Shown here piece after piece: positions 1 through 21,033 of a DNA stretch of 21,033 nucleotides. The first letter of the stretch is position 1; every line of letters begins with the position of its first letter. The position numbers and the translations under genes are program-made. The notes beneath the pieces are model-generated. The model made no database searches and was not told where the DNA came from. It saw only the letters and a program-made list of their open reading frames with translations. Source of the stretch: Escherichia coli (GTDB taxonomy: Bacteria > Pseudomonadota > Gammaproteobacteria > Enterobacterales > Enterobacteriaceae). Location: assembly GCF_003334335.1 (NCBI RefSeq), contig NZ_QOWQ01000051.1. One strand, 5' to 3'.

Positions 1-171
1 TCCATAAATTAACCTTCATTTGATGCTGGATTGAACATATCAAAATCAGGCAATTACACAAATCTATGTACAGGCTCGCCATGGACAGAAACTACCTGGC
101 GTCAGTCCTTGCGGGGAGCGGGCTTTCGTAGTAATACCCCGACTCTCCCCGTCCTTAAACACAACCCCCAC

Positions 172-7464: not shown

Positions 7465-8214
7465 ATGTCCTTGCCGTCGATTCCATCCTTTGTATTGTCG
7501 GGATTACTGTTGATTTGTTTGCCGTTTTCTTCATTTGCCAGCGCCACCACATCACATATCTCTTTCAGCTACGCCGCCCGCCAGCGGATGCAAAACCGTG
7601 CGCGTTTATTAAAACAGTACCAAACTCATCTGAAAAAGCAGGCCAGCTATATTGTGGAAGGCAATGCCGAAAGCAAAAGGGCGCTACGCCAGCACAACCG
7701 GGAGCAGATAAAACAGCATCCAGAATGGTTTCCTGCTCCGCTCAAGGCGAGTGACAGACGCTGGCAGGCGCTGGCGGAAAACAACCACTTTTTAAGCAGC
7801 GACCATCTGCATAACATTACCGAAGTGGCGATTCACCGCCTGGAGCAGCAGCTTGGCAAGCCTTACGTCTGGGGCGGTACGCGGCCTGATAAAGGCTTTG
7901 ACTGTAGCGGGTTGGTTTTTTATGCCTACAACAAGATCCTTGAGGCTAAGCTCCCGCGCACGGCCAATGAGATGTACCACTATCGCCGGGCAACGATTGT
8001 GGCGAACAACGACCTGCGCCGGGGAGATTTGCTGTTTTTCCATATCCACAGCCGCGAGATAGCCGATCATATGGGCGTGTATTTGGGCGATGGGCAATTT
8101 ATCGAGTCGCCACGTACCGGCGAAACCATTCGGATAAGCCGATTAGCCGAACCTTTCTGGCAGGACCATTTTTTGGGCGCGCGCAGGATTTTGACGGAAG
8201 AGACGATTTTGTAG
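7465..8214 (+). CDS. yafL: NlpC/P60-family putative peptidoglycan endopeptidase lipoprotein YafL
   Basis: Track ORF starts at a TTG (7405); the ATG at 7465 gives 249 aa with a signal/lipobox-like N-terminus. NlpC/P60 catalytic Cys context GFDCSGLVFYAY and downstream His are present. Confidence 0.8.
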   Translation: MSLPSIPSFVLSGLLLICLPFSSFASATTSHISFSYAARQRMQNRARLLKQYQTHLKKQASYIVEGNAESKRALRQHNREQIKQHPEWFPAPLKASDRRWQALAENNHFLSSDHLHNITEVAIHRLEQQLGKPYVWGGTRPDKGFDCSGLVFYAYNKILEAKLPRTANEMYHYRRATIVANNDLRRGDLLFFHIHSREIADHMGVYLGDGQFIESPRTGETIRISRLAEPFWQDHFLGARRILTEETIL

Positions 8215-8296
8215 GACGGATAAGGCGTTTACGCCGCATCCGGCAGTTGTACGCAGGTGCCTGATGCGACGCTGGCGCGTCTTATCATGCCTACGA
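8211..8296. repeat. REP pair (BIME) between yafL and rayT
   Basis: gtaggacggataaggcgtttacgccgcatccggca overlaps the yafL stop, followed by gcctgatgcgacgctggcgcgtcttatcatgcctac. Confidence 0.8.
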
Positions 8297-8389
8297 GCCC
8301 GCGAATATTTGCGAGCCGCTTTCCCGATATAAAACAACCTCATTGCCAACCTTTCCTTTTCTTCTTACCGTTGAGAAAAAGGAGTCGCC

Positions 8390-8887: not shown

Positions 8888-8890
8888 TTG

Positions 8891-9095
8891 TGCGCAGATG
8901 CCTGATGCGACGCTAGCGCGTCTTATCATGCCTACAAACTTGTGCCGGATCGGTAGGCCGGATAAGGCGTTTATGCCGCATCCGGCAGTTATGCGCAGAT
9001 GCCTGATGCGACGCTGGCGCGTCTTATCATGCCTACAAACTTGTGCCTGAACGGTAGGACGGATAAGGCGTTCACGCCGCATCCGGCAGTTGTGC
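8891..9095. repeat. REP/BIME array (at least four REP palindromes) between rayT and lfhA
   Basis: Alternating copies of gcctgatgcgacgct(a/g)gcgcgtcttatcatgcctac and ggtagg(c/a)cggataaggcgtt(t/c)a(t/c)gccgcatccggca. The array ends 16 nt before the lfhA stop. Confidence 0.85.
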
Positions 9096-15485: not shown

Positions 15486-15602
<117 letters not shown>

Positions 15603-15726
15603 ATGGATAACTCATTGTTTACCATAAAATAATATTTTTATTATCGTTTAATTCGAACTTGTTAATCCCGCCGGTGATACGCTTCACAATATCCTGTTTT
15701 CTGTCGCTACTGATATCGTTCACCCT

Positions 15727-17073: not shown

Positions 17074-18720
17074 ATGAATGCACAAATAAAGAAGTTAACC
17101 CAGGCGTTTCCGGCGTTTCGACTGCGTCTCGTAGATAACAAACGCTGGGCGTTGATGGCGGGAGTGGGGCTTGCCGTGGCGGCGACGGCGATTATCGTCA
17201 GCGTGCTGTGGACCGGTAATCGCGGCTACGTTTCGCTCTACGGACGCCAGGAAAATCTGCCCGTGTCGCAGATTGTCACGGTGCTGGACGGCGAAAAGCT
17301 CAGCTACCGCATCGACCCGCAGAGCGGGCAGATTCTGGTGCCGGAAGATGAACTGTCGAAAACGCGTATGACCCTTGCCGCGAAAGGCGTGCAGGCGATA
17401 TTGCCCAGCGGCTACGAGCTGATGGACAAAGACGAAGTGCTCGGCAGCAGCCAGTTCGTGCAGAACGTGCGCTATAAACGCAGCCTCGAAGGGGAGCTGG
17501 CGCAGAGCATTATGTCGCTGGACGCGGTGGAGAGCGCGCGGGTGCATCTGGCGCTCAACGAAGAAAGCTCGTTTGTGGTCAGCGATGAGCCGCAAAACAG
17601 CGCCTCGGTGGTGGTGCGTCTGCACTACGGCGCGAAGCTGAATATGGACCAGGTGAACGCCATCGTGCATCTGGTTTCCGGCAGTATTCCGGGGCTGCAG
17701 GCCAGCAAAGTCAGCGTCGTCGATCAGGCGGGAAATCTGCTAACCGACGGCATTGGCGCGGGCGAGGCGGTCTCTGCCGCTACCCGTAAACGCGATCAGA
17801 TCCTCAAAGACATTCAGGACAAAACCCGCGCCAGCGTGGCGAACGTGCTGGATTCGCTGGTCGGCAGCGGGAATTACCGTGTCAGCGTGATGCCGGATCT
17901 CGACCTCAGCACCATCGACGAAACTCAGGAACACTACGGAGACGCGCCGAAAATAAACCGCGAAGAGAGCGTGCTGGACAGCGACACCAATCAGGTGGCG
18001 ATGGGTGTGCCCGGCTCTCTCAGCAACCGTCCGCCGGTTGCGGCGAATCAGATGACCAACGGCACGGAAGAAAATCGCTCGCCGGAAGCGTTATCCAAAC
18101 ACAGCGAAAGCAAGCGCGATTACTCTTACGACCGCAGCGTCCAGCATATTCAGCATCCCGGCTTTGCGGTGAAACGCCTCAACGTGGCGGTGGTGCTCAA
18201 TCAAAACGCCCCGGCGCTGAAAAACTGGAAGCCGGAACAGACCACGCAGCTTACCGCGTTGCTGAACAATGCCGCCGGGATCGACGCGCAACGTGGAGAT
18301 AACCTGACGCTTTCACTGCTTAACTTTGTCCCGCAGGTGGTCCCGGTCGAACCGGTGATCCCGCTGTGGAAAGATGACAGCGTGCTGGCCTGGGTGCGGC
18401 TGATTGGCTGCGGCCTGCTGGCGCTGTTGTTGCTGTTCTTTGTGGTGCGCCCGGTAATGAAACGCCTGACGGCGGTGCGTGCGCCGGTTATCACACCAGA
18501 ACCGGAAGCTGTCAGCGAACCGTGGATCGCTATGCCGGAAGAGGAGCGCAAAAACGTCGATCTGCCGTCGCTGCCCGGCGATGACAGCCTGCCTTCGCAG
18601 AGTTCCGGCCTCGAAGTGAAACTCGAGTTCCTGCAAAAACTGGCCATGAGCGACACCGATCGCGTAGCCGAAGTTCTCAGACAATGGATCACCAGCAATG
18701 AGCGAATTGACAACAAATAA
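17074..18720 (+). CDS. lfiF: Flagellar MS-ring protein, FliF homolog (Flag-2 LfiF)
   Basis: 548 aa with an N-terminal TM segment, a large periplasmic region and a second TM near the C-terminus (…LIGCGLLALLLLFFVV…). Length and topology fit FliF rather than the shorter injectisome SctJ. Confidence 0.85.
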   Translation: MNAQIKKLTQAFPAFRLRLVDNKRWALMAGVGLAVAATAIIVSVLWTGNRGYVSLYGRQENLPVSQIVTVLDGEKLSYRIDPQSGQILVPEDELSKTRMTLAAKGVQAILPSGYELMDKDEVLGSSQFVQNVRYKRSLEGELAQSIMSLDAVESARVHLALNEESSFVVSDEPQNSASVVVRLHYGAKLNMDQVNAIVHLVSGSIPGLQASKVSVVDQAGNLLTDGIGAGEAVSAATRKRDQILKDIQDKTRASVANVLDSLVGSGNYRVSVMPDLDLSTIDETQEHYGDAPKINREESVLDSDTNQVAMGVPGSLSNRPPVAANQMTNGTEENRSPEALSKHSESKRDYSYDRSVQHIQHPGFAVKRLNVAVVLNQNAPALKNWKPEQTTQLTALLNNAAGIDAQRGDNLTLSLLNFVPQVVPVEPVIPLWKDDSVLAWVRLIGCGLLALLLLFFVVRPVMKRLTAVRAPVITPEPEAVSEPWIAMPEEERKNVDLPSLPGDDSLPSQSSGLEVKLEFLQKLAMSDTDRVAEVLRQWITSNERIDNK

Positions 18721-19708
18721 GAGCAACAGCTACCTGGAACAGGCGGCGATCCTGCTGCTGTGTCTGGGCGAAGAGGCGGCGGCGACGGTGATGCAAAAAC
18801 TCAGCCGCGAAGAAGTAGTGCGCCTGAGCGAAAACATGGCGCGGCTTTCCGGCGTCAAAACCAGCATGGCGCGCAAAGTGATCAATAACTTCTTTGATGA
18901 GTTCCGCGAACAGAGCGGGATCAACGGCGCATCGCGATCCATGTTGCAGGGTATTCTCAACAAAGCCCTCGGCACCGAGATCGCCAGCAGCGTGATCAAC
19001 GGCATCTACGGCGATGAGATCCGCTCGCGGATGGCGCGCCTGCAATGGGTGGAACCACGCCAGCTGGCGATGCTGATCTCCGAAGAGCATTTGCAATTAC
19101 AGGCGGTGTTCCTCGCGTTTCTGACGTCGGAAATCTCGGCGGCGGTGCTCTCGTATCTCAATGAATCGGTGCAAAACGAAATTCTCTATCGGGTGGCGAA
19201 ACTCAACGACGTTAACCGCGACGTGGTGGATGAACTGGACAGGCTGATCGAACGCGGCCTGTCGGTGCTCTCTGAACATGGCTCGAAGGTGAAAGGCATC
19301 AAACAGGCGGCGGATATCGTCAACCGCTTCCAGGGTAACCAGCAGGTGATCCTCGACCAGATGCGCGAGCGCGACGAAGAGGTGCTGGAGCAGCTCCAGG
19401 ATGAGATGTACGACTTCTTTATCCTCAGCCGCCAGAACGAAGAGGTACGTCGACGTCTGCTCGACGAAGTGCCGATGGAAGACTGGGCGGTGGCGCTGAA
19501 AGGCACCGAAGCCCTGTTGCGGCGCTCGATTTACGCGGTAATGCCAAAACGTCAGGTGCAACAACTGGAAGCGATCACCGCGCGCCTGGGGCCGGTGCCG
19601 GTCAGCCGTATCGAACAGATCCGCCGCGAAATCATGGGCATCGCCCGTGAACTGGAAGAGGCGGGCGAAATTCAGCTACAGCTCTTTGCGGAACAGACGG
19701 CGGAGTAA
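18698..19708 (+). CDS. lfiG: Flagellar rotor protein, FliG homolog (Flag-2 LfiG)
   Basis: 336 aa, alignable by eye to FliG throughout (ILLLCLGEEAAATVMQKLSREEV…; …EAGEIQL at the C-terminus). Overlaps the lfiF 3' end by 23 nt. Confidence 0.85.
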   Translation: MSELTTNKSNSYLEQAAILLLCLGEEAAATVMQKLSREEVVRLSENMARLSGVKTSMARKVINNFFDEFREQSGINGASRSMLQGILNKALGTEIASSVINGIYGDEIRSRMARLQWVEPRQLAMLISEEHLQLQAVFLAFLTSEISAAVLSYLNESVQNEILYRVAKLNDVNRDVVDELDRLIERGLSVLSEHGSKVKGIKQAADIVNRFQGNQQVILDQMRERDEEVLEQLQDEMYDFFILSRQNEEVRRRLLDEVPMEDWAVALKGTEALLRRSIYAVMPKRQVQQLEAITARLGPVPVSRIEQIRREIMGIARELEEAGEIQLQLFAEQTAE

Positions 19709-19711
19709 CCC

Positions 19712-20422
19712 ATGACCATTGAAACACTGCGCGGGCGCTATCGCCTGCACCGCTTCCCGCCGCGCCAGCGTGCGGTGACCGGAGAACCGCTCACCGCCAG
19801 CATTAGCGCCGCCGATTACCAGCGCCAGTTGATGGACGGTTTTCAGGAAGGGCTGCAAAAAGGTTTTGCTCAGGGAATGACCGAAGGTCAGGAGCAGGGC
19901 TTTAGCGAAGGTCATCAGCAAGGTTTTGCCGAGGGGCGACGCCAGGGCTACACCGAAGGCAGTCTCGCCGGGCAGCAGGAAGGGCGCAAACAGTTTGTTG
20001 AGGCGGCGCAGCCGCTGGAAGCCATCACCGGTAAAGTGAACGACTTTCTCGCCCATATCGAACGTAAACAGCGGGAAGATTTGCTGCAACTGGTGGAAAA
20101 GGTGACGCGGCAGGTGATCCGCTGCGAACTGGCGCTGCAACCGACGCAGTTGCTGGCGCTGGTGGAAGAGGCGCTGGCGGCCTTCCCGGCGATGCCGGAA
20201 ACCCTGCAAGTGATGCTGAGTACGGAAGAGTTTAACCGCCTGCGCGACGCGGTGCCGGAAAAGGTCAGCGAATGGGGGCTGACGCCTTCGCCGGATCTGC
20301 CACCGGGCGAATGCCGGGTGATCACCGACAAATCCGAACTGGATATCGGCTGCGAGCATCGCCTTGAACAATGCATGACCGCGCTGAAAGAAACACTCAC
20401 GCCGGAGTCGCAGGGTGAGTGA
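19712..20422 (+). CDS. lfiH: Flagellar export ATPase regulator, FliH homolog (Flag-2 LfiH)
   Basis: 236 aa, positioned between the FliG and FliI homologs, with an N-terminal run of GxxxG repeats typical of FliH/YscL proteins. Confidence 0.75.
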   Translation: MTIETLRGRYRLHRFPPRQRAVTGEPLTASISAADYQRQLMDGFQEGLQKGFAQGMTEGQEQGFSEGHQQGFAEGRRQGYTEGSLAGQQEGRKQFVEAAQPLEAITGKVNDFLAHIERKQREDLLQLVEKVTRQVIRCELALQPTQLLALVEEALAAFPAMPETLQVMLSTEEFNRLRDAVPEKVSEWGLTPSPDLPPGECRVITDKSELDIGCEHRLEQCMTALKETLTPESQGE

Positions 20423-20956
20423 TTTTTCTGCGTTCGATAACGCCCTGCGCTCGCTGGAGTCGATCCCGCTGGCCCGCGTCGCCGGGCGGCTGGTGCGCCT
20501 TAACGGCATCCTGCTGGAGAGTGTCGGCTGCCCGCTAATGACCGGGCAGCTGTGCCGCATCGAAAGTGCCAATCACACGCTGATCGACGCGCAGGCCGTG
20601 GGCTTTAATCGCGACATCACCTATTTAATGCCGTTTAAACAGCCGGTCGGCCTGATGGCAGGCGCACGCGTCTTCCCGGAAGAAAAAGCCCACGACATCC
20701 TGATAGGCGAAAGCTGGTTAGGCCGCGTGGTGAATGGCCTCGGCGAACCGCTGGATGGCAAAGGCCGCCTGAACGGCAACGACCTTCTGCCGCCGTTGCC
20801 GCCCTCGGTTAATCCCTTAACTCGTCGTTCGGTAGACGAACCGCTGGACGTGGGCGTGAAAGCGATCAACGGCCTGCTGACCATCGGCAAAGGCCAGCGC
20901 GTCGGACTAATGGCAGGCAGCGGCGTCGGGAAAAGCGTGCTGCTGGGGATGATCCC
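20415..20956 (+). pseudogene. lfiI: Flagellum-specific ATPase FliI homolog (Flag-2 LfiI), 5' fragment truncated by IS186
   Basis: GTG start overlapping lfiH by 8 nt. FliI-like N-terminal domain and Walker A GSGVGKSVLLGM are present, then the reading frame runs into IS186 terminal sequence at about 20957. Only about 180 of an expected roughly 440-450 codons are present. Confidence 0.8.
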
Positions 20957-21033
20957 CATAAGCGCTAACTTAAGGGTTGTGGTATTACGCCTGATATGAT
21001 TTAACGTGCCGATGAATTACTCTCACGATAACT
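20957..21033 (+). mobile_element. IS186 (IS4 family) left end with the start of its transposase; element continues beyond the window
   Basis: The terminal sequence cataagcgctaacttaagggttg… matches the IS186 inverted repeat as I remember it. An ATG at 21012 opens MNYSHDN…, the IS186 transposase N-terminus. The preceding host sequence GGGGATGATCCCC fits the IS186 G-run/C-run target preference. Confidence 0.8.

What the first reader, a model, noticed from the sequence alone, without database searches (positions are those of the whole stretch)
19850..19990. Long uninterrupted GxxxG repeat in the FliH homolog
LfiH residues in the stretch QKGFAQGMTEGQEQGFSEGHQQGFAEGRRQGYTEGSLAGQQEG have Gly at every fourth position for about 10-11 consecutive repeats, encoded by imperfect repeats of roughly 12/24 nt. 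FliH and YscL proteins are known for AxxxG/GxxxG helix repeats of variable length; this one is long and regular. The repetitive DNA may be prone to slippage and so to length variation between strains.
Basis: seen in the sequence. Interest (0 to 1): 0.4.

Follow-up and report, generated by a model that had tools for sequence, protein, structure and literature searches.

The report
Known glycine-repeat helix in lateral-flagellar FliH
The FliH homologue of the E. coli second (Flag-2, lateral) flagellar system has a glycine at every fourth residue 13 times in a row; this is a real and conserved helix motif that was already described for FliH proteins in 2009, and it is stable between strains rather than hypervariable.

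Summary
LfiH (window 19712-20422, +) has Gly at residues 43, 47 ... 91: 13 glycines, 12 uninterrupted GxxxG, nt 19838-19984. In 100,000 shuffles of the protein the longest run never exceeded 5.

It is the known FliH "primary repeat segment". Trost & Moore 2009 cite an E. coli FliH with 12 repeats as the longest they knew. K-12 FliH has 7, so I infer their protein is this Flag-2 protein.

AlphaFold2 puts the array inside one confident helix (residues 33-142). That helix matches the long helix of V/A-ATPase peripheral-stalk subunit E. The likely role is a Gly/aromatic seam that pairs two FliH helices into the rod linking the export ATPase to the C ring.

The slippage idea is only weakly supported:
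- The 12-nt units are 48% identical on average.
- All 89 sampled complete E. coli genomes keep the full length, and none of 1276 has a large deletion.
- Orthologues down to about 60% identity keep 12 repeats.
- Rare in-frame deletion alleles (9, 8 and 1 repeats) do exist. The two best-documented junctions lie at 7-10-nt in-phase direct repeats, and one deletion arose twice.

Twelve is no longer extreme: fliH genes with 25 and 36 repeats exist. Already known; low interest.

The parts
18698..19708 (+). lfiG (FliG homologue), the gene upstream of lfiH
   Evidence: ORF of 336 aa; annotated as flagellar motor switch protein FliG in the 99.95%-identical locus L001
19712..20422 (+). lfiH, FliH homologue of the Flag-2 (lateral) flagellar cluster, 236 aa
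   Evidence: Pfam FliH; NCBIfam NF009925 316.6 bits, cut-off 192; annotated fliH in 1276 E. coli genomes
19739..19762 (+). Conserved N-terminal motif YRLHRFPP (aa 10-17), a candidate peptide for binding the FliN-type C-ring protein (inferred)
   Evidence: consensus YRxxRFPP with P16 at least 90% conserved in the 91-sequence alignment A1; low pLDDT in the monomer model; function inferred from what is known of the FliH N-terminus (PMC6248999)
19808..20137 (+). One continuous predicted alpha-helix, aa 33-142, that contains the Gly array
   Evidence: AlphaFold2, mean pLDDT 88.6, blocks over the array 93-97; Foldseek matches to FliH_C 5b0o and to V/A-ATPase stalk subunit E
19838..19984 (+). The GxxxG array: 13 Gly at spacing 4 (aa 43-91), 12 uninterrupted GxxxG
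   Evidence: shuffles; conserved at 12 in orthologues
19844..19853 (+). Left copy of the exact 10-nt in-phase direct repeat CAGGAAGGGC
   Evidence: left end of the natural 132-nt deletion in L002 (P0052)
19976..19985 (+). Right copy of CAGGAAGGGC, 132 nt (11 repeats) downstream
19895..19901 (+). Left copy of the 7-nt in-phase direct repeat CAGGGCT
   Evidence: left end of the 48-nt deletion found in L003 and L008
19943..19949 (+). Right copy of CAGGGCT, 48 nt (4 repeats) downstream
20003..20374 (+). C-terminal FliH domain (aa 98-221), the part that dimerises and binds the ATPase in solved FliH
   Evidence: Pfam PF02108 E=2.8e-25; PDB 5b0o matches aa 121-220
20415..20957 (+). 5' part of lfiI (FliI export ATPase homologue), cut off by an insertion sequence
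   Evidence: colinearity with the intact locus L001 ends at 20957
20958..21033 (.). End of an IS4-family IS421/IS186-like element inserted in lfiI
   Evidence: the last 94 nt match thousands of places annotated as IS421-family transposase; the same fliI/IS junction is in strain TUM14664 (H91)

Best explanation
The stretch is the 'primary glycine repeat segment' of a FliH-family protein, here LfiH of the E. coli Flag-2 (lateral flagella) cluster. It is a protein-level motif kept by selection, not a DNA repeat.

The 49 residues G-[F/Y/L/M/polar]-x-[E/Q/K] form the N-terminal half of a single alpha-helix about 165 Å long (aa 33-142); the array itself spans about 73 Å. On an alpha-helix a 4-residue period makes the Gly/x1 seam wind rightwards by 40 degrees per repeat. 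Two such helices can stay in Gly-to-Gly contact only as a tightly intertwined right-handed pair. At a 6-7 Å axis separation the crossing angle would be about 40 degrees, the geometry of GxxxG helix dimers.

I infer that the array zips the N-terminal helices of the LfiH dimer into a thin rigid rod. The rod would continue the coiled coil seen in FliH_C (5b0o). It would serve as the spoke or stator stalk between the LfiI ATPase hexamer and the FliN-type C-ring protein, which the N-terminal YRxxRFPP peptide would bind.

Shown here: the motif, its conservation, the helix prediction, family membership and the fold resemblance to the peripheral-stalk E subunit. Inferred: homodimeric pairing through the Gly seam, and the spoke role.

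Length changes arise rarely, by deletion between short in-phase direct repeats. In other lineages arrays grow by block duplication.
For: Motif and significance.

Family and context.

Selection acts on the protein. All 13 Gly are kept in 51 distinct orthologue arrays while x positions vary (that set was selected for 12 repeats). The unfiltered list shows that the only replacement seen at a Gly position is Ala (P0068, P0084-P0087). Six of 13 Gly codons differ synonymously between two lineages, and syn/nonsyn changes in the array (10/7) resemble those in the rest of the gene.

Helix: AF2 pLDDT 93-97 over the array, helix 33-142.

Fold: 5b0o FliH_C, then V/A-ATPase peripheral-stalk subunit E aligned over about 200 columns.

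Geometry.

Literature. FliH GxxxG repeats are predicted helical, with aromatic residues at x1 and Glu/Gln elsewhere (PMC2674601). FliH dimers form the spokes between the FliI hub and FliN, and spokes are longer in the large flagellar C ring than in injectisomes (PMC6248999). That parallels FliH having up to 12 repeats against 0-2 in YscL. In the eukaryotic deca-GX3 proteins Yae1-Lto1, Gly mutations abolish complex formation, and those authors note the same motif in FliH (PMC4523923). AF3 models show an intertwined coil with the glycines rendered on the two helices (PMC12810181).

Length change.
Against: No solved structure contains any FliH Gly array; 5b0o starts after it. I could not obtain coordinates or a dimer model, so the pairing mode (parallel homodimer, hairpin or hetero-partner) is untested. 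An allele with a single GxxxG lies in an apparently intact lfiEFGHIJ operon, so a long array may not be strictly required. Many FliH proteins have 0-3 repeats (PMC2674601). In this window's strain lfiI is disrupted by an IS, so the protein may currently have no function at all.
Confidence: 0.7

Rival explanations
1. One reading: the array is a slippage-prone repetitive DNA tract whose copy number varies between strains, as in a contingency or variable-number locus.
For: Rare in-frame deletion alleles with 9, 8, 8 and 1 GxxxG exist. The 132-nt deletion ends exactly at the two CAGGAAGGGC copies. The 48-nt deletion ends at the CAGGGCT copies. It occurs in two backgrounds that are 93.8% identical, with different SNPs within 25 nt of the junction, so it arose at least twice. 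Five of 8-9 in-frame deletion events in Escherichia lfiH alleles fall in the 21% of the gene occupied by the array (binomial p about 0.01-0.02). A 25-repeat fliH elsewhere carries a 60-nt tandem repeat, 3.3 copies, 87% matches.
Against: The units are only 48% identical, and Tandem Repeats Finder sees 1.9 copies of a 24-nt unit. Of 1276 complete E. coli genomes, 1272 are at least 95% identical over the array, none lacks 42 nt or more, and all 89 sampled rows have the full span. Of 15 listed members of the 1586-member 90% cluster, 14 are 236 aa. The count of 12 is fixed across genera, and no expansion was seen. Similar direct-repeat deletions occur elsewhere in the gene.
Confidence: 0.1
2. The Gly-rich stretch is a flexible or disordered linker between the N-terminal docking peptide and the C-terminal domain, and the regular spacing has no structural meaning.
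For: Glycine is a poor helix former. The segment is rich in Gln and Glu. No experimental structure exists.
Against: Exact 4-residue spacing is kept over 49 residues in dozens of orthologues, with Ala as the only replacement seen. The x1 position is 55% F/Y/L/M and x3 is 81% E/Q/K. AF2 predicts a helix with pLDDT 93-97. A linker would tolerate indels that are not multiples of four, yet the deletions lying wholly inside the array remove 12, 16 or 44 residues.
Confidence: 0.05
3. The Gly seam is a docking surface for something other than the second LfiH chain. Candidates are neighbouring FliH dimers bundled side by side, FlhA, FliJ, or the C-ring protein.
For: In Borrelia, 3-4 spokes leave each FliI, and the authors propose that FliH dimers bind adjacent FliH dimers in parallel (PMC6248999). 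In Yae1-Lto1 the GX3 arrays mediate a heterodimer. Dimerisation of FliH is ascribed to a small central region, not the array (PMC6248999).
Against: There are no data for any such contact. A homodimer brings two identical arrays into register by itself. The monomer model shows the array continuous with the helix that forms the dimeric coiled coil in 5b0o.
Confidence: 0.15

Closest known systems
FliH primary glycine repeat segment, AxxxG(xxxG)m xxxA (Trost & Moore 2009, PMC2674601)
   Same: Same protein family, same position N-terminal to the FliH domain, and the same residue preferences (aromatic/Leu at x1, Glu/Gln/Lys elsewhere). The paper names an E. coli (strain 53638, EDU66533) FliH with 12 repeats as the longest it knew. 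Because K-12-type FliH has 7, I infer that protein is this Flag-2 LfiH.
   Different: LfiH lacks the flanking Axxx and xxxA. I could not retrieve EDU66533 to confirm identity (one search found nothing in the supplements).
E. coli K-12 / Salmonella primary FliH
   Same: A paralogue with the same role, gene order fliG-fliH-fliI, and a C-terminal domain alignable to 5b0o.
   Different: It has 7 GxxxG (aa 55-83) with A flanks and a longer acidic N-terminal lead. LfiH has 12 GxxxG and a short lead.
YscL/SctL of injectisomes
   Same: Homologous stator or spoke protein of type III secretion; weak NCBIfam hits.
   Different: 0-2 GxxxG repeats (PMC2674601). Spokes are shorter (PMC6248999).
Eukaryotic deca-GX3 proteins Yae1 and Lto1 (Pfam Yae1_N, PF09811)
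   Same: Ten or more consecutive GX3 units in a soluble helix. Gly mutations break Yae1-Lto1 pairing (PMC4523923). AF3 predicts an intertwined coil with the glycines rendered on the two helices (PMC12810181). LfiH gives faint Yae1_N hits.
   Different: Hits are below significance (E 0.01-0.1). They form a heterodimer in Fe-S protein maturation, with no FliH domain. This is an analogue, not a demonstrated homologue.
Peripheral stalk subunit E (with G) of V/A-type ATPases
   Same: Long N-terminal helix plus a small C-terminal globular domain; Foldseek aligns about 200 columns. From general knowledge, the E-G stalk is a right-handed coiled coil that holds an ATPase hexamer.
   Different: The stalk uses hendecad-type packing, not a Gly-every-4 seam, and it is a heterodimer.
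GxxxG (GASright) transmembrane helix dimers such as glycophorin A
   Same: Small-xxx-small with the following residue in the interface, and a crossing angle near -40 degrees, which a 4-residue period reproduces (motif knowledge from memory and PMC4523923).
   Different: One or two motifs in a membrane, against 12 in a soluble, Gln/Glu-rich helix.

Membership tests
FliH/SctL family (flagellar assembly protein FliH) | C-terminal FliH domain recognised by curated profiles | tested here: met
   Pfam PF02108 aa 98-221, E=2.8e-25; NCBIfam NF009925 equivalog 316.6 bits against a cut-off of 192
FliH/SctL family (flagellar assembly protein FliH) | Gene lies between fliG and fliI homologues in a flagellar export operon | tested here: met
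   lfiG 18698-19708, lfiH 19712-20422, lfiI from 20415; fliE-F-G-H-I-J order in L001
FliH/SctL family (flagellar assembly protein FliH) | Fold: long N-terminal helix plus a small alpha/beta C-terminal domain like FliH_C / stalk subunit E | tested here: met
   AF2 model; Foldseek 5b0o_E E=1e-4, 3v6i_A and V-ATPase E subunits
FliH/SctL family (flagellar assembly protein FliH) | Forms a dimer that binds the FliI-type ATPase and the C-ring protein FliN | not testable with these tools
   Needs biochemistry or a multimer model. Only a conserved N-terminal YRxxRFPP motif was seen.
FliH primary glycine repeat segment (Trost & Moore) | Run of contiguous GxxxG N-terminal to the FliH domain | tested here: met
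   12 GxxxG at aa 43-91
FliH primary glycine repeat segment (Trost & Moore) | Flanking AxxxG and GxxxA | tested here: not met
   Residue 39 is Q and residue 95 is F. The paper says 5 of 44 FliH proteins also lack both flanks, so this is not disqualifying.
deca-GX3 / Yae1_N (PF09811) | Significant match to the Yae1_N profile | tested here: not met
   Best i-Evalue 0.01 at 15.9 bits; three overlapping weak hits
deca-GX3 / Yae1_N (PF09811) | At least ten consecutive GX3 units | tested here: met
   13 Gly in register
Slippage-prone variable-number tandem repeat / contingency locus | Near-identical tandem DNA units | tested here: not met
   Mean unit identity 48%; Tandem Repeats Finder finds 1.9 copies at 81%
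Slippage-prone variable-number tandem repeat / contingency locus | Frequent copy-number polymorphism, gains and losses, among strains | tested here: not met
   No deletion of 42 nt or more in 1276 complete genomes, 89 of 89 sampled at full length. Only rare deletions and no gains among 120 homologues.

The most novel reading that the evidence does not exclude
The Gly array may be an evolvable length ruler for the ATPase-to-C-ring spoke. Its number of 4-residue units would be tuned by in-phase deletion (12 to 9, 8 or 1 in Escherichia) and by block duplication (25-36 units in other bacteria). The natural 8-repeat and 1-repeat lfiH alleles sit in operons whose neighbouring genes are intact where the contigs reach. 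They are ready-made tests of whether spoke length matters for type III export.
Probability: 0.15. Interest if true: 0.5.

Novelty: already known. Interest (0 to 1): 0.2.

Why it matters
The GxxxG array of FliH was characterised statistically in 2009, and a 12-repeat E. coli protein was named there, so the finding adds no new kind of feature. Two things remain open. No experimental structure of any FliH Gly array exists. The reason why flagellar FliH proteins carry long arrays while injectisome SctL proteins carry almost none is also unknown. Three small additions from this work could help someone design that experiment: natural 12/9/8/1-repeat alleles, a recurrent 48-nt deletion at a 7-nt direct repeat, and fliH genes with 25-36 repeats. 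They do not change the picture.

Tried and rejected
- Hypervariable tract: rejected on unit identity and on population data.
- Confirming that EDU66533 (E. coli 53638) is this protein: the paper's supplements hold neither the accession nor the peptide. The cluster look-up lists other accessions only. The link stays an inference.
- A solved structure of the array: sequence searches of the PDB with the whole protein and with the array alone found only 5b0o (aa 121-220) and chance low-complexity hits.
- Dimer packing: the structure tool returns no coordinates and takes a single chain. I considered a linker-fused dimer run but did not do it, because its output (pLDDT, pTM, secondary structure) could not show which face pairs.
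- Unbiased family-wide distribution of array length: my representative search was made with a long-array query, so it favours long arrays (median about 10). I rely on the 2009 survey for the unbiased mean of 2.84.
- Membership in Yae1_N: tested and not met.
- The 298-aa ORF on the opposite strand (19676-20572): it is a mechanical ORF opposite a well-supported gene, and I did not pursue it.
They were repeated later.

Full report
**Observation**

The ORF at window 19712-20422 (+) encodes a 236-aa protein. Its glycines at residues 43, 47, 51 ... 91 are all exactly four apart. That makes 13 Gly, or 12 uninterrupted GxxxG, encoded by nt 19838-19984. The units are GFQE GLQK GFAQ GMTE GQEQ GFSE GHQQ GFAE GRRQ GYTE GSLA GQQE G.

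The array actually starts two units earlier, at 19838. In 100,000 shuffles of the protein the longest in-register run never exceeded 5. The pattern is therefore real and far beyond chance.

**What the gene is**

- The window is 99.95% identical, from 78 to 20957, to the Flag-2 (lateral flagella) cluster of E. coli strain 300709. The gene order there is flhA-flhB-fliR-Q-P, two FliM/FliN-family genes, a sigma-54 activator, fliE-F-G-H-I-J and so on, with lafA further on.
- The protein has a Pfam FliH domain at aa 98-221 (E=2.8e-25).
- It passes the NCBIfam FliH equivalog NF009925 at 316.6 bits against a cut-off of 192.
- The gene is present in 1277 of 5426 complete E. coli genomes. That agrees with the 24/100 reported for flag-2 in E. 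coli (PMC6993521).

**DNA level**

The array is not a DNA tandem repeat in any strong sense.

- Tandem Repeats Finder reports only a 24-nt unit, 1.9 copies, 81% matches.
- The twelve 12-nt units are on average 48% identical, or 38% outside the GG of the Gly codons.
- The Gly codons use GGT, GGG, GGA and GGC.
- There are, however, short exact direct repeats that are in phase (the 132-nt and 48-nt pairs also appear):

| Repeat length | Left copy | Right copy | Spacing |
|---|---|---|---|
| 10 nt | 19844 | 19976 | 132 nt |
| 10 nt | 19860 | 19920 | 60 nt |
| 9 nt | 19882 | 19906 | 24 nt |
| 8 nt | 19880 | 19952 | 72 nt |
| 7 nt | 19895 | 19943 | 48 nt |

**Variation between strains and species**

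Complete E. coli genomes:
- With a 207-nt query centred on the array, all 1276 genomes that have it cover at least 80% of the query in one place. That rules out any deletion of 42 nt or more.
- 1272 genomes are at least 95% identical.
- All 60 rows sampled evenly down the ranking span exactly 207 nt.
- All 29 full-length rows of the first search span 711 nt.
- Small deletions of 12-36 nt cannot be excluded for roughly 20 unsampled genomes at the bottom of the ranking.

The wider protein database:
- The exact protein occurs on at least 1000 contigs.
- Of 15 listed members of its 1586-member 90% cluster, 14 are 236 aa.
- Orthologues in Citrobacter, Pseudescherichia, Atlantibacter and Siccibacter, down to about 60% identity, all keep 12 repeats. 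The only replacement at a Gly position is Ala.
- A more distant group (Serratia, Enterobacter, Pragia, Citrobacter koseri) has 10-11 repeats. No relative at 59% identity or more has over 12.
- Between two lineages that are 87% identical in DNA, 6 of 13 Gly codons differ synonymously. Synonymous/non-synonymous counts in the array (10/7) resemble those of the rest of the gene.
- The array is therefore old and maintained by selection on the protein.

**Rare deletion alleles**

| Allele | Source | Length | GxxxG left | Deletion |
|---|---|---|---|---|
| P0052 | Escherichia sp. 93.0743 | 192 aa | 1 | 132 nt |
| P0013 | Escherichia sp. 20412-1 | 220 aa | 8 | 48 nt |
| P0012 | GCA_053184105.1 | 220 aa | 8 | 48 nt |
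| P0009 | metagenome | 224 aa | 9 | 36 nt |
| P0035 | metagenome | 199 aa | 4 | 111 nt |

- The 132-nt deletion joins the two CAGGAAGGGC copies. Both copies are present in its intact 94.6%-identical relative.
- The 48-nt deletion joins the two CAGGGCT copies.
- The 48-nt deletion occurs in one allele that is 100% identical to the window outside the gap, and in another that is only 93.8% identical. The two carry different SNPs within 25 nt on both sides of the junction. It therefore arose at least twice.
- The operons around P0052 and P0013 look intact: FliE 113, FliF 548, FliG 336, FliI 445 and FliJ 144 aa.
- In-frame deletions between short repeats also occur elsewhere in the gene (P0014/P0018 lack 23 aa, P0041 lacks 54 aa).
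- Five of 8-9 deletion events fall in the 21% of the gene occupied by the array (p about 0.01-0.02).

**How long is long**

- K-12 FliH has 7 GxxxG (aa 55-83).
- Trost & Moore found a mean of 2.84 (SD 2.53, maximum 10) in 50 non-redundant FliH proteins, and 0-2 in YscL. They singled out an E. coli 53638 FliH with 12 repeats as the longest known (PMC2674601).
- A scan of 1.84 billion representatives now finds FliH-domain proteins with 13-17, 25, 32 and 36 repeats. The 36- and 25-repeat genes lie directly downstream of fliG.
- The 25-repeat gene contains a 60-nt tandem repeat (3.3 copies, 87% matches). This is a recent block duplication of five units.
- That search is biased toward long arrays because the query carries one.

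**Structure and mechanism**

- AlphaFold2 with a 91-sequence alignment gives mean pLDDT 88.6. It predicts one continuous helix over aa 33-142, with pLDDT 93-97 over the array, followed by a small alpha/beta domain.
- Foldseek matches FliH_C of 5b0o, and then V/A-ATPase peripheral-stalk subunit E over about 200 columns.
- No PDB chain contains a FliH Gly array.
- In the array, x1 is 55% F/Y/L/M and x3 is 81% E/Q/K. The Gly plus x1 positions form a seam.
- With 100 degrees per residue, a 4-residue period moves the seam +40 degrees per repeat. Two helices can keep Gly-to-Gly contact only in a right-handed supercoil of about 54 Å pitch. At a 6-7 Å axis separation the crossing angle is about 38-44 degrees, the GxxxG-dimer geometry (this step is inference).
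- Gly mutations in the eukaryotic deca-GX3 proteins Yae1-Lto1 abolish their pairing, and the authors note the same motif in FliH (PMC4523923). AF3 models show an intertwined coil with the glycines rendered on the two helices (PMC12810181).
- Cryo-ET shows that FliH dimers are the spokes between the FliI hub and FliN of the C ring. The spokes are longer in flagellar motors than in injectisomes (PMC6248999).
- I therefore infer that the array zips the two LfiH N-terminal helices into a thin rod about 73 Å long, and that this rod forms part of the spoke. The pairing mode itself was not tested.

**Context caveat**

In this window lfiI is interrupted at 20957/20958 by the end of an IS421/IS186-like IS4 element. 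The Flag-2 export ATPase is broken in this strain, so LfiH may be idle here.

**Verdict**

The feature is real, correctly attributed and already described in the literature, very probably including this very protein. The hypervariability hypothesis is largely refuted. The modest new items are the recurrent direct-repeat deletions and the existence of much longer arrays.

Noticed in passing
window 20415-21033: lfiI (FliI ATPase homologue) is cut at 20957/20958 by the end of an IS4-family IS421/IS186-like element. The junction reads GGGGATGATCCCC|ATAAGCGCTAACTTAAGGGTTG. The same fliI/IS junction is present in E. coli TUM14664. The Flag-2 system of this strain is probably non-functional.
   Followed up: partly
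lfiH alleles P0014, P0018, P0041, P0011 (aligned to window 19985-20260): In-frame deletions also occur outside the Gly array. P0014/P0018 lack 23 aa between two LLxLVE copies (aa 127-149). P0041 lacks 54 aa. P0011 lacks 13 aa starting at the last Gly of the array. This suggests relaxed constraint on lfiH in some Escherichia lineages.
   Followed up: partly
L010 1445-2686 and L011 3109-4101: fliH genes directly downstream of fliG carry 36 and 25 uninterrupted GxxxG. L011 has a 60-nt tandem repeat (3.3 copies, 87% matches), a recent duplication of a five-unit block. L010 has no DNA-level repeat.
   Followed up: partly
proteins P0224 (807 aa) and P0255 (1054 aa): Large proteins with 67 and 24 consecutive G[YF]xxG-type units (for example GYNSGTTDGYNSG). 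They matched only through the array and do not look like FliH.
   Followed up: no
window 19739-19762: A conserved N-terminal motif YRxxRFPP (P16 at least 90% conserved across 91 FliH relatives) lies in a low-confidence, presumably disordered lead. It is a candidate docking peptide for the FliN-type C-ring protein. Unlike Salmonella FliH (from memory), it has no Trp.
   Followed up: no
window ~8208-8310, 8888-9095, 15500-15607: Short interspersed repeats, similar to each other and to several sites in the reference locus. They are probably REP/BIME elements near rayT and in the intergenic region upstream of the sigma-54 activator gene.
   Followed up: no
window 1-77: The first 77 bases are not colinear with the reference locus L001, which has an ISAs1 transposase gene at that edge. 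The left flank differs between strains.
   Followed up: no
window 19676-20572 (- strand): A 298-aa open frame runs antisense to the whole of lfiH. It is a mechanical ORF in GC-rich coding DNA, with no evidence of a gene.
   Followed up: no
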